Below are positions 1 to 3,000 of a stretch of DNA of 47,716 bases, piece after piece (the first letter of the stretch is position 1; every line of letters begins with the position of its first letter). The position numbers were made by a program. Source of the DNA: a virus (lineage: Duplodnaviria > Heunggongvirae > Uroviricota > Caudoviricetes); IMG/VR virus record IMGVR_UViG_2925929528_000002, positions 1-47,716 of that record. One strand, written 5' to 3'.

Positions 1-3000
1 TCATATTACTGGATAATCATCATCATCCTTCCATATCCGGTTAATAACGAATGTCACTATTCCTAACACTACGACGTCGTCGAGTGCTTCACCTTCCAGC
101 GCCTCACCATCACGAGTAATAAACGCCTTCCCCATAACTTTCGCAAAATCTGTACCGCCGGAGTACTGGATCAATACCGTGTCCTGCTGCTTTGGTTTAG
201 AGGAGAAATCAATTACGGCATAACCAGTTTCAGTCTGTACGACCCTAGTATTAGGGCCGATGCTGCATAGCTTATCGACGGTTAACCGCCCCTCCACATA
301 GTCTGATGCTGGCGATGGAAATCCCACGATTACAGCCCTCCATTCGGGTTGTAAAGCTGGAACGTGCGATCGTCACCTTCCTGCGTTGAGACATCCCGGA
401 ATGTCGTCACATATTGCTCTATCCACTGGTTAGCCTGGCGCGGTGACCATATCCAGTTAACCTTTGCGAGTTCCCGGATAAAACCGGACGTTGTCACGGT
501 GCGACGGCCATTAGGCTCAATGACAATTGCCTGACGCCAGGCTATTTCGATATCTGAGTTTCGCGGCATAATTTCACCCCCTTAACTACTGTTTTTATAT
601 GGGTCTTCCCTTGTTGTGGTGGCTGAAGGCATGATAATGGTGTATTTAATCGCCAGAGGTCACCGCCATGGACGAAAAGTCCCTCTACGCTCATATTCTC
701 AACCTGTCCGATCCGTGGCAGGTAAAGTCCCTTTCTCTCGATGAAAATGCCGGTTCTGTTACTGTCACTATTGAGATCGCTGAAAACACCCGGCTAGCCT
801 GTCCGGCCTGCGGTAAATCCTGTTCTGTTCACGATCACCGTCATCGTAAATGGCGCCATCTTGATACCTGCCAGTTCACCACTATTGTTGAAGCCGATGT
901 TCCACGAATTATGTGTCCGGAGCATGGCTGTCAGACGTTGCCTGTTCCGTGGGCTGGCCCCGGAAGCCGGTATACGTTGCTGTTCGAATTGTTCGTTCTC
1001 TCATGGCTGAAAATCAGCACCGTTGATGCTGTCAGGAAGCAACTTAAGCTCAGCTGGAATGCGGTTGACGGCATTATGACCCGGGCAGTTAAGCGAGGTC
1101 TTGCCCGGATAAAAAAGCCATTATCCGCCCGTCATATGAATGTGGATGAGGTCGCCTTTAAAAAAGGACATCGTTACATAACGGTGATCTCCGATCGCGA
1201 TGGTCGGGCGCTGGCCTTAACGGATGATCGCGGCACAGAGAGTCTTGCCGGCTATCTTCGCACACTCACTGATGGGCAGTTGCTGGCTATCAAAACGCTC
1301 TCAATGGACATGAACGCGGGCTATATAAGAGCAGCGCGCATCCACTTACCCAGCGCGGTTGAGAAAATCGCCTTTGACCGCTTCCATGTGGCGAAGCAAC
1401 TGGGCGAGGTAGTTGATAAAACCCGTCAGAATGAACATCCGCACCTCCCTGTTGAAAGCCGACGCCAGGCAAAAGGAACCCGCTTCCTGTGGCAGTACAG
1501 TGATAAGTGGATGACTGAATCCCGGCAGGAAAAGCTGATGTGGCTGCGTGCACAGATGAAGCTGACGAGCCAGTGCTGGGCGCTGAAAGAGCTGGCAAAG
1601 GATATCTGGAACAGGCCATGGAGCGAGGAAAGGCGGAGTGACTGGCAGAGATGGCTGGCGCTGGCGGCTAACAGTGACGTTCCCATGATGAAAAATGCTG
1701 CGAAAACGATAGGAAAAAGGCTGTACGGGATCCTGAATGCGATGCGACACAGTGTCTCAAACGGAAATGCGGAGGCACTTAACAGCAAGATAAGGTTGCT
1801 GAGAATAAAAGCCAGGGGATACCGAAACCGGGAGCGCTTTAAACTGGGAGTGATGTTCCACTACGGTAAGCTGAATATGGAGTTCTGAGCCTTCCCACCA
1901 TGATCGGGGAAGACCCTTTTATATACAGTAGATTCATTGGGAGATCTGATCAATACAGGTTCCAGCTATCGATCAGGCGCACCGACGCAACATAATGATT
2001 ATTCAGAAGCAGGCAGGTACTTGTAGATAGTTTTCACGTCTACCCCTATCACATCGGCTACCTGCTGCCGGATTGCGCCCGTACCCAACATCCTGCGGCA
2101 TCGCTCCACAACCTCAGTGGTCATTACCCGGCGGCGGCCGCCTACTCTCCCCTGCTCCCTCGCTGCGGCTAAACCTGCGCGGGTACGCTCGACGATCAGC
2201 TCGCGCTCCATTTTTGCCAGGGCGCTCATGACGTGGAAGCAAAAGCGGCCTGCTGGCGTACTGGTATCGATGCTGTCGGTCAGACTGCGTACATGGACAC
2301 CATGGACTAGCCGAAACAACTTCCGCATGATTTCTTGTTAAAACTGCTTGACCGTAGAAAGAGCAACCCCTACTATTTTTAAAAATACCAATATGCTTTT
2401 TAATATTAGTTTTACCTCTATTTTATCATCCACACGAGCCATAACATGAAAGAGGAAACATTAATAAATGAACAAAAAGAAAGGTATAATCATCGCCCCG
2501 GGCCAAATAATTTCACGCCATGATGGATCAATGACATTTAATAAATTAGAAAGTTCCGACATCAACTTTCTTTTACTATATTGGGACAAAGTTGTTATAT
2601 CAACCAATAATATCTTACATCTTGAGGTTCCTCGAGAAAAAACACTAAGGGAATTAATGGCCGCAGATTTTCCTCGAGCTATAATTACGGAAGATGATTA
2701 CCCCAACGATGAAGGAAGAATACAAGAAAATTTATTTATAAAAGCACAATACAAAATAGCAGAAAAAATCAGCCAAGATGATCATGAGAAATTTGATTGG
2801 AGTTTAAATCAAATTAGTAACAGTCCTGACCTAGTCATTCCCGAGGCATATACAAAACAAGCACTTTTGTTAAAAATGGATTTTATGCAACTACTTCCAT
2901 CCCCAGGAAATCTTACAACCTATGAAGATGTATTAGAATTCAAGGAAAAAAGAGGTGATTTGCTAAATGAACTCCATTCGCATATTGAAGGAATCTGTAT

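What the first reader, a model, noticed from the sequence alone, without database searches (positions are those of the whole stretch)
1999..2328. Truncated Gin/Hin-family invertase remnant
Only the C-terminal ~95 residues of a serine invertase are conserved; the catalytic N-terminal domain is absent. Any ancestral invertible tail-fibre segment is therefore presumably locked.
Basis: partly seen in the sequence, partly recalled or inferred. Interest (0 to 1): 0.35.

Follow-up and report, generated by a model that had tools for sequence, protein, structure and literature searches.

The report
Dead remnant of phage DNA invertase
This is the leftover back half of a phage gene that once flipped a DNA segment to switch tail-spike genes; the enzyme's active half, its target sites and the alternative spike gene are all gone, so it is an ordinary scar of prophage decay.

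Summary
ORF 1999..2328 (minus strand, 109 aa) carries residues 84-182 of a 182-aa Gin-type serine DNA invertase: the last part of the catalytic domain with helix E, plus the HTH DNA-binding domain. It is 89% identical to intact prophage invertases and aligns to Gin residues 83-182 (E 1e-29). Residues 1-83, which include the catalytic serine, are found nowhere in the 47.7-kb window.

DNA homology stops at 2289/2290. There a 1.63-kb AT-rich island begins (DUF6236 gene and a 105-aa ORF). At its other end the island also truncates a HumD-like gene.

Every intact relative examined with both ends in view has 26-bp gix-like sites in inverted orientation, flanking 4.4-6.4 kb with two convergent tail-spike genes. 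The window has no such site, no long inverted repeat and only one spike gene. The switch is therefore dismantled, not merely locked.

The same junction occurs, always colinear, in ten other loci from public assemblies, so it is an old inherited scar and not an artefact. The neighbouring ISL3 element is a later, unrelated insertion. Truncated invertases of this lineage are common and are already annotated as partial genes.

Interest is low. Function of the short ORF is neither supported nor excluded.

The parts
1999..2328 (-).
   Evidence: ORF list; Pfam Resolvase positions 92-144/145 plus HTH_7; PHROG 125 DNA invertase, E 5e-38.
2005..2301 (-). Segment truly homologous to invertases, equal to residues 84-182 of the 182-aa enzyme: end of the catalytic domain, helix E and the HTH domain. 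Nucleotide homology runs only up to 2289.
   Evidence: tblastn 89% identity, E 4e-55; aligns to Gin 83-182; blastn end points at 2289; DNA alignment.
1999..2214 (-). 3' part of the remnant that differs by 10-14% between carriers of the same junction. It is a mosaic joint where downstream DNA has been exchanged.
   Evidence: Distribution of mismatches along the module in L014, L016 and L004; different downstream genes in each.
2290..3920 (.). AT-rich (31-35% GC) 1.63-kb island that replaces the invertase 5' half on one side and the 3' part of a HumD-like gene on the other
   Evidence: Composition profile; homology end points at 2289 and at HumD-B codon 41-43, i.e. about 3917-3923.
2468..3349 (+). 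DUF6236 protein gene (293 aa), cargo of the island, divergent from the remnant
   Evidence: Pfam DUF6236, E 1.2e-23; PHROG 23128, unknown function; no PADLOC or NCBIfam hit.
3361..3678 (-). 105-aa ORF of the island, no family match
   Evidence: called as a gene in all carriers.
3869..4045 (-). Truncated HumD/UmuD'-like gene (pair B). Only codons 1 to about 41-43 are homologous.
   Evidence: PHROG 3469 UmuD-like, profile positions 2-40 of 106; tblastn end points.
4048..4302 (-). 84-aa gene (pair B), paralogue of the 79-aa gene at 330..569
   Evidence: PHROG 3893, E 2e-30; about 32% identity to p79 in relatives.
4404..7610 (-). The single remaining tail-spike gene (1068 aa, SGNH/GDSL-like C-terminus). 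Its N-terminal domain is homologous to the N-termini of the spikes of intact relatives, which lie in or next to the inverted repeats there.
   Evidence: PHROG tail-fibre N-terminal hits and weak GDSL hit; 51-66% identity to spike N-termini of L001, L002, L010-L012; DNA similarity of 7229-7412 to both repeat arms of L001.
601..1916 (+). ISL3-family insertion sequence, 75 bp downstream of the remnant's stop codon. A later event, not the cause of the truncation.
   Evidence: Pfam and NCBIfam ISL3 transposase; terminal inverted repeats; 8-bp target duplication TTTTATAT at 593-600 and 1917-1924; empty site in L003 at 100% identity.
1..569 (-). Intact p79 + HumD-like pair (pair A). The same pair follows the intact invertase in L001, L012 and L013, and a more divergent copy in L011.
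   Evidence: PHROG 3893 and 3469; annotation of L001, L011, L012, L013 and tblastn matches there; 84% DNA identity to L001.

Best explanation
It is a non-functional 3' remnant (pseudogene) of a Gin/Cin/Pin-type small serine DNA invertase, sitting at the end of a Mu-like-baseplate myovirus prophage in E. coli.

In intact relatives, the 182-aa enzyme lies next to a 26-bp crossover site. A second, inverted copy of that site lies 4.4-6.4 kb away. The enzyme is inferred to flip the segment between them, which changes which of two alternative tail-spike genes follows the tail operon.

In an ancestor of this prophage lineage, a rearrangement put 1.63 kb of AT-rich foreign DNA (DUF6236 gene plus a 105-aa ORF) in the place of invertase codons 1-83. 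Those codons include the catalytic serine and the conserved catalytic Arg/Asp residues. The adjacent crossover site, the distal spike cassette and the 3' part of a HumD-like gene are also missing.

What remains is helix E plus the HTH domain. An accidental ATG 13 codons upstream of where nucleotide homology begins keeps the frame open. The remnant cannot catalyse recombination and has no substrate. The prophage therefore carries one fixed spike gene.

The scar has been inherited by many strains. Its conserved 3' part has served only as a patch of homology at which downstream DNA was exchanged with other prophages.

Shown here: the truncation, the breakpoint, the absence of sites and of a second cassette, the architecture of intact relatives, and inheritance of the junction.

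Inferred: that the ancestor of this very locus had a complete inverton, that the loss happened in one step, and that the ORF is not expressed as a useful protein.
For: Truncation:
- Only profile positions 92-144/145 of Resolvase plus HTH_7 are present.
- The remnant matches residues 84-182 of an intact enzyme at 89% identity, and nothing else in the window matches.
- It aligns to Gin residues 83-182.

Breakpoint:
- All blastn matches to intact genes end at 2289 (alignment).
- GC content falls from about 60% to 31-35% beyond the breakpoint.
- The far edge of the island cuts a HumD-like gene at codon 41-43.

Ancestral system in relatives:
- Five intact loci have TTCGCTCAAACCCTCGTTTGGGCGAA-type sites in inverted orientation around two convergent spike genes.
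- In intact genes of Klebsiella, Raoultella, Pectobacterium and Dickeya the site sits at a constant position, 69 bp upstream of the invertase start.

Loss in the window:
- No match to the site at up to 3 mismatches, and generic gix-pattern hits do not exceed shuffled sequence.
- No long inverted repeat in 1..10500 apart from the IS ends.

Inheritance, not artefact:
- The identical 109-aa product is on 7 contigs, and variants with the same junction occur at other chromosomal sites.
- All of them are colinear with the window.

Decay:
- F30C and E39K fall in columns that are invariant in 55-56 of 56 full-length relatives.
- No promoter-like site lies directly upstream on the minus strand.
- There is no Shine-Dalgarno-like sequence before the ATG (direct reading).

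Commonness:
- 64 of the 120 best homologue clusters are shorter than 177 aa.
- PGAP already annotates such remnants as 'missing N-terminus' in E. coli M505, HS and p10B.
Against: - The reading frame is open in every carrier, including alleles whose 3' part differs by 10-14% at the DNA level. On its face this could suggest selection for the short protein. However, those differences are concentrated in a block (2214..1999) with different downstream flanks. That fits import by recombination from functional alleles, so the observation does not discriminate.
- No expression data were available.
- That this particular myovirus lineage ever had a complete inverton is inferred from relatives. The closest intact relatives are siphovirus (TipJ) prophages.
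- No relative was found with the p84/HumD-like pair B lying between spike and invertase in an intact system.
Confidence: 0.9

Rival explanations
1. Domesticated short protein. The helix-E plus HTH fragment is expressed and works without catalysis. It could bind gix-like sites of incoming or co-resident phages, poison their invertase by forming mixed dimers through helix E, or regulate the divergent DUF6236 gene.
For: The ORF is intact in all carriers found, 108-109 aa with the same N-terminus. The HTH domain and helix E are nearly unchanged relative to functional enzymes. A PHROG family of 'DNA binding proteins' (phrog_664) matches the same region.
Against: - The start codon lies in non-homologous DNA, with no Shine-Dalgarno-like sequence and no promoter-like site directly upstream.
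- Two substitutions hit invariant helix-E positions, F30C and E39K.
- Other lineages truncate the same gene at many different points, giving products of 40 to about 148 aa. That is the pattern of random decay rather than a selected form.
- Sequence conservation of the 3' part is explained by recombination with intact alleles.
Confidence: 0.06
2. The gene is intact in reality, and the truncation is an assembly artefact or a split caused by the neighbouring IS, with the 5' half displaced elsewhere.
For: An ISL3 element lies 75 bp from the ORF. Repeats and IS copies often break assemblies.
Against: - The IS is downstream of the stop codon, not at the breakpoint.
- L003 lacks the IS, is 100% identical across the region and has the same truncation.
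- The junction recurs in ten other loci from NCBI, ENA and Logan assemblies.
- No 5' half exists in the 47.7-kb window.
Confidence: 0.01
3. The remnant and pair A belong to an older, mostly deleted siphovirus prophage at the same attachment site. The myovirus (spike plus pair B) lies beside it, so the invertase never belonged to this phage's tail module.
For: - Intact invertase plus pair A sits at the same place next to yodB in the TipJ-type prophages of E. coli SX45 and ES4.
- The window has two paralogous pairs, as expected if two prophage ends were joined.
- The closest intact invertases are from siphovirus prophages.
Against: - The block from pair B through the island to the remnant travels together with the Mu-like baseplate genes at a different chromosomal site (near smpB in L016) without pair A. 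The remnant's 5' part is therefore part of the myovirus end module.
- E. coli HS has a related myovirus remnant with its own, differently truncated invertase right after its spike genes.
- More distant intact invertases sit next to gp47/gp48 baseplate genes in Morganella, Citrobacter, Shigella and E. coli.
Confidence: 0.15

Closest known systems
Gin of phage Mu, and Cin of P1, Pin of e14, Hin of Salmonella: small serine DNA invertases
   Same: Clear sequence homology: ORF residues 9-108 match Gin residues 83-182, E 1e-29, covering helix E plus the C-terminal HTH_7 domain. The gene sits at the end of a tail-fibre/spike module of a prophage. Intact close relatives have 26-bp imperfectly palindromic crossover sites in inverted orientation around alternative receptor-binding genes. 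The resemblance of those sites to gix/hix is from my memory of the literature.
   Different: The catalytic half (residues 1-83, including the Ser nucleophile) is missing. So are the crossover sites, the alternative cassette and, by inference, the enhancer that lies in the 5' part of such genes. It cannot work as an invertase. In most intact relatives seen here, the sites lie just upstream of the start codons of two complete spike genes (whole-gene swap). In Mu, inversion exchanges only the variable C-terminal part of the S gene.
Intact 182-aa prophage invertases of Klebsiella and E. coli lambdoid prophages (E. coli SX45 WP_032412784.1; Klebsiella phage KPP5665-2 gp23; cluster P0006)
   Same: 89-93% amino-acid identity over the retained 99 residues. 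E. coli SX45 and several other E. coli relatives have the same downstream neighbours, a 79-aa gene plus a HumD-like gene. SX45 and ES4 carry the prophage next to yodB, the same chromosomal position as the window's lineage.
   Different: Those are full length with both sites and two spike cassettes. Here only the 3' 55% of the gene survives, and it carries F30C and E39K at otherwise invariant positions.
Other truncated invertase remnants in prophages (E. coli M505, HS and p10B 'missing N-terminus'; Klebsiella phage ST846-OXA48phi9.2 'Hin recombinase', 40 aa; clusters P0013, P0032, P0105)
   Same: Same gene lineage, same position after the spike genes, loss of the 5' half, and often an opposite-strand cargo gene or mobile element at the break: Acyl_transf_3, IS26 or a group II intron.
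   Different: Different breakpoints and different inserted DNA, so these are independent decay events. The window's junction (2289/2290 with the DUF6236 island) is specific to its own myovirus lineage.

Membership tests
Small serine DNA invertases (Gin/Hin/Cin/Pin) | N-terminal catalytic core with the serine nucleophile (Gin Ser9, Hin Ser10) and conserved Arg/Asp residues within the first ~80 residues | tested here: not met
   Only Pfam Resolvase profile positions 92-144/145 are present. The remnant aligns to Gin from residue 83 on. tblastn with a full-length enzyme finds residues 1-83 nowhere in the window.
Small serine DNA invertases (Gin/Hin/Cin/Pin) | Helix E followed by a C-terminal HTH_7 DNA-binding domain, with significant sequence similarity to characterised members | tested here: met
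   Gin, E 1e-29; Hin HTH domain (1HCR), E 4e-5. PHROG 125 DNA invertase, E 5e-38. HTH_7 at 23.5 bits, just below the 23.8 cut-off.
Small serine DNA invertases (Gin/Hin/Cin/Pin) | Two 26-bp crossover sites in inverted orientation, one close to the invertase gene | tested here: not met
   No match to the relatives' site at up to 3 mismatches. Generic pattern hits do not exceed shuffled sequence, and none lies in 1..10500. Intact relatives have the sites.
Small serine DNA invertases (Gin/Hin/Cin/Pin) | Invertible segment carrying alternative tail-fibre or spike cassettes | tested here: not met
   No long inverted repeat in 1..10500 other than the IS ends. There is one spike gene only, 4404..7610. 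All ten other carrier loci are colinear with the window.
Small serine DNA invertases (Gin/Hin/Cin/Pin) | Fis-dependent recombinational enhancer, located within the 5' part of the invertase gene in Gin/Hin/Cin (established knowledge, from memory) | not tested
   The 5' 249 bp of the gene, where such enhancers lie, is deleted. I did not look for Fis sites in the intact relatives.
Pseudogene or gene remnant | Part of a gene whose full-length homologues exist, lacking residues essential for activity, with a breakpoint that coincides with foreign DNA | tested here: met
   Breakpoint at 2289/2290, with a GC drop from about 60% to 31-35%. 56 full-length homologue clusters of at least 177 aa exist among the best 120. 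Substitutions at invariant positions.

The most novel reading that the evidence does not exclude
The helix-E plus HTH fragment is a retained, expressed protein of this myovirus lineage. It might be a catalytically dead decoy that binds gix-like sites or forms mixed dimers with invertases of co-resident or superinfecting phages and so freezes their tail-spike switches. Or it might be a regulator of the adjacent DUF6236 cargo gene. A weaker version is that the remnant is kept because it is a homology patch that lets the phage swap its end module with other prophages.
Probability: 0.06. Interest if true: 0.45.

Novelty: already known. Interest (0 to 1): 0.1.

Why it matters
It matters little beyond correct annotation.

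The locus should be labelled as an invertase pseudogene. The prophage should be treated as having one fixed receptor-binding protein, with no phase-variable host range.

It is a clean, datable example of how phage tail-spike inversion switches decay. Cargo DNA replaces the distal cassette, the crossover site and the 5' half of the invertase gene. The surviving 3' half then serves as a recombination joint between prophages. The same pattern recurs independently in many Klebsiella and E. coli prophages.

Tried and rejected
- Looked for the missing 5' half anywhere in the window with tblastn: nothing.
- Tested whether ORF residues 1-8 (MRKLFRLV) are a diverged continuation of the enzyme's VRDLITLV. 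MAFFT pairs them (4 of 8 identical), but the DNA alignment shows no homology upstream of about 2301, so I treat this as chance.
- Searched for gix-like sites with the relatives' exact site, a degenerate 26-mer and half-sites: nothing above shuffled expectation.
- Looked for direct proof of inversion among intact relatives, i.e. the same cassette in both orientations. Pairwise blastn of five loci showed none. The only minus-strand matches are the repeat arms themselves. E. coli p10A and p10B were uninformative because of IS26 rearrangements. Activity of the intact relatives therefore remains inferred from their architecture.
- Tried to name the island's genes with PADLOC, NCBIfam and lenient Pfam: only DUF6236 and PHROG 23128.
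- The island has no megablast match in the complete E. coli genomes or the phage collection.
- Did not use dN/dS of the remnant as a test of function. The variable 3' block is evidently imported by recombination, which would confound it.
- The promoter and terminator scan gave nothing above chance near the ORF.
- The one literature search turned up only the general, well-known class of phage invertases. I read none of the papers and cite none.
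Full report
**1. What is at 1999..2328**

The coordinates delimit an ORF on the minus strand of 109 codons, with ATG at 2328-2326 and the stop at 2001-1999. 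Its product is MRKLFRLVHGVHVRSLTDSIDTSTPAGRFCFHVMSALAKMERELIVERTRAGLAAAREQGRVGGRRRVMTTEVVERCRRMLGTGAIRQQVADVIGVDVKTIYKYLPASE.

- Pfam matches residues 9-61 to positions 92-144 of the 145-position Resolvase profile (E 2.3e-15). It matches residues 64-107 to HTH_7 (E 6e-5, marginally below cut-off).
- PHROG 125 'DNA invertase' matches residues 8-109 to profile positions 102-204 of 254 (E 5e-38).
- Against solved structures, residues 9-108 align to residues 83-182 of Gin (3UJ3, 4M6F; E 1e-29). They align more weakly to the same region of the gamma-delta and Tn3 resolvases and to the Hin HTH domain.
- tblastn with the intact 182-aa invertase of a prophage of E. coli SX45 aligns its residues 84-182 to window 2301..2005 (89% identity, E 4e-55). 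It finds nothing else credible in the 47,716 bases.

The retained part is the last strand of the catalytic domain, helix E and the HTH domain. The part with the serine nucleophile and the other catalytic residues is absent. The positions of those residues in the first ~80 residues are established knowledge of the family.

**2. Where and how the gene is broken**

Every blastn match to intact invertase genes (E. coli, Klebsiella and Stenotrophomonas phages and prophages) ends at window 2289. A DNA alignment shows clear homology from the codon for R14 (RSLTDS...) onwards and none upstream of about 2301. The first 9-13 codons and the ATG are therefore not invertase sequence.

GC content is about 60% over the remnant and falls to 31-35% from about 2300 to about 3900. 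This AT-rich stretch carries a DUF6236 gene (2468..3349, plus strand; Pfam E 1.2e-23) and a 105-aa ORF (3361..3678, minus strand) with no family match.

At its far edge, the island cuts a HumD/UmuD'-like gene (3869..4045) after codon 41-43. That gene and the 84-aa gene before it (4048..4302) form a diverged second copy of the intact pair at 330..569 and 1..327.

A 1.63-kb island thus sits exactly between two truncated genes. Whatever lay between HumD-B codon ~42 and invertase codon 84 has been lost.

The ISL3-family element at 601..1916 is not involved. It lies 75 bp downstream of the stop codon and has an 8-bp target duplication. It is absent from an otherwise 100% identical contig (L003) that has the same truncation.

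**3. What the intact system looks like**

Five relatives with a full-length gene share one architecture. They are E. coli SX45, WP2-S18-ESBL-08, ES4 and MB07152, and Klebsiella phage KPP5665-2.

- The gene order is: host-specificity protein TipJ (annotated 'kinase' in KPP5665-2), spike gene 1, a convergent spike gene 2 on the other strand, then the invertase. In the four E. coli loci a 79-aa gene and a HumD-like gene follow; KPP5665-2 has other genes there.
- In all five, a 26-bp imperfect palindrome of the type TTCGCTCAAACCCTCGTTTGGGCGAA occurs twice in inverted orientation, 4.4-6.4 kb apart.
- One copy lies just upstream of the invertase. In four loci each copy lies about 20 bp upstream of the start codon of one spike gene. 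In MB07152 the far copy lies inside the coding region of the TipJ-proximal spike gene.
- In intact genes from Klebsiella, Raoultella, Pectobacterium and Dickeya, the site sits at a constant 69 bp upstream of the invertase start. In five of the ten loci with the site at that position a second site (1-4 mismatches) lies 3.4-4 kb away; two Pantoea loci have the near site about 90 bp upstream and partners 1.1-3.3 kb away.

The 12-2-12 layout and the AAACC core resemble gix and hix, as I recall them from the literature. This is the classical invertase-driven switch of receptor-binding proteins.

I could not show actual inversion in these relatives, because no cassette was seen in both orientations. 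Their activity is inferred from their architecture.

**4. What is left of it in the window**

- No gix-like site: zero matches to the relatives' site at up to 3 mismatches. The degenerate 26-mer gives no more hits than shuffled sequence, and none in the first 10.5 kb.
- No inverted repeat longer than 19 nt in 1..10500 apart from the IS ends.
- One spike gene only (4404..7610). Its N-terminal domain is homologous to the N-termini of the spikes of intact relatives.

The state is fixed, but 'locked' understates it. The enzyme's active half, both sites and the alternative cassette are all gone, so an invertase supplied in trans would have nothing to act on.

**5. Age, spread and the history of the scar**

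The exact 109-aa product is encoded on 7 contigs from NCBI, ENA and Logan assemblies. The host flank of the longest one is 98-99% identical to E. coli.

Variants with the same N-terminus and the same F-to-C change (P0001-P0003) occur in prophages with the same Mu-like baseplate genes. These sit at other chromosomal sites, for example near smpB. All ten loci are colinear with the window.

Between carriers, the block from the 84-aa gene through the island to about 2215 is roughly 99.5% identical. The 3' part of the remnant (2214..1999) differs by 10-14%. The downstream DNA is unrelated: pair A here, a KGG-domain gene in L014, DinI in L016. The simplest reading is homologous recombination within the conserved invertase 3' sequence, which exchanged the prophage's outermost genes.

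This also explains why the frame remains open in diverged alleles, so openness is not evidence of function. Two changes at positions invariant in 55-56 of 56 full-length relatives are consistent with relaxed constraint. F30C is shared by all junction carriers; E39K is found in the window's lineage and in P0001. No promoter-like site lies directly upstream, and no Shine-Dalgarno-like sequence precedes the ATG.

**6. How ordinary this is**

Of the 120 best homologue clusters, 64 are shorter than 177 aa, with many different lengths. Independent remnants with other breakpoints include the following.

- E. coli M505: next to a group II intron, fused to a fragment of a p84-like gene.
- E. coli HS: a related myovirus remnant in which only the HTH domain is left.
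- E. coli p10B: cut by IS26.
- Klebsiella phage ST846-OXA48phi9.2: 40 aa, annotated 'Hin recombinase'.
- HumD::invertase fusion ORFs (P0013, P0020).
- Remnants next to an opposite-strand acyltransferase gene.

PGAP already labels several of these 'incomplete; missing N-terminus'. The class is known and the instance is unremarkable.

**7. Rivals**

- An assembly or IS artefact is excluded.
- A domesticated DNA-binding fragment cannot be excluded without expression data, but it has nothing specific in its favour. I give it about 6%.
- The remnant plus pair A might be the end of an older siphovirus prophage joined to the myovirus end. This is compatible with the duplicated pairs and with the siphovirus context of the closest intact genes. 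But the remnant's 5' part travels with the myovirus module at other sites without pair A. HS shows a differently truncated invertase in the same kind of myovirus. I give this rival about 15%, as a statement about ancestry only. It does not change what the feature is now.

**8. Verdict**

Its inference about a locked segment should be sharpened to 'switch dismantled'. Novelty: already known kind, already annotated in relatives. Interest: 0.1.

Noticed in passing
window 586..1931 (IS 601..1916): An ISL3-family IS with an 8-bp target duplication TTTTATAT sits in an imperfect palindrome, CTACTGT-TTTTATAT-ACAGTAG. L003 is the empty site at 100% identity. L005 carries a different ISL3 relative (85% identity) at the very same site in the opposite orientation. 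This suggests a target hotspot in the hairpin downstream of the invertase remnant.
   Followed up: partly
window 2290..3920: A 1.63-kb AT-rich island (31-35% GC) holds a DUF6236 gene (2468..3349, plus strand) and a 105-aa ORF (3361..3678, minus strand). It has no PADLOC or NCBIfam hit and no megablast match in complete E. coli genomes or the phage collection. It is carried by a family of Mu-like-baseplate prophages at several chromosomal sites. Its function is unknown; it is a candidate moron or defence cargo.
   Followed up: partly
window 7611..9640: A second AT-rich insert holds a 442-aa protein gene with a signal-peptide-like N-terminus (7713..9041, plus strand). It lies between the short fibre-like gene 9072..9614 and the spike gene. 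The relative L016 has no gene on the opposite strand at that position and has a 223-aa gene in place of the 180-aa one.
   Followed up: no
window 1..569 and 3869..4302: There are two paralogous gene pairs, each a 79/84-aa protein (PHROG 3893) plus a HumD/UmuD'-like protein (PHROG 3469). They are about 32% and 45% identical to each other. The second pair is truncated by the island. Different fusions of pair-B genes to invertase remnants occur in E. coli M505 and in clusters P0013 and P0020.
   Followed up: partly
L001 8677..9073 / 14743..15140; L002, L011, L012, L013; L025-L034 position 9932: Intact relatives carry 26-bp gix-like sites. In most, the sites lie just upstream of the start codons of two complete, convergent spike genes, so whole genes are swapped rather than C-terminal exchange as in Mu. 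In SX45 the inverted repeat extends about 370 nt into both genes at 92% identity. In MB07152 the site next to the TipJ-proximal spike gene is intragenic.
   Followed up: partly
window 1999..2214: There is a mosaic joint inside the remnant. Carriers of the same junction are about 99.5% identical up to about 2215 and 10-14% divergent beyond it, with unrelated downstream genes. The dead gene's conserved 3' part acts as a recombination patch between prophages.
   Followed up: yes
L020..L022 (Logan and ENA contigs): A recurrent layout in other prophages is: spike gene, then an opposite-strand Acyl_transf_3 cargo gene, then a truncated invertase of 112-115 aa. This mirrors the DUF6236 arrangement here. 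Cargo genes seem to settle where the distal spike cassette used to be.
   Followed up: no
window 4404..7610: The spike protein contains about four internal repeats of roughly 125 aa (38-48% identical to one another) ahead of an SGNH/GDSL-like C-terminal domain. The last ~120 aa are 90% identical to a separate 148-aa ORF in Klebsiella phage ST846-OXA48phi9.2.
   Followed up: no
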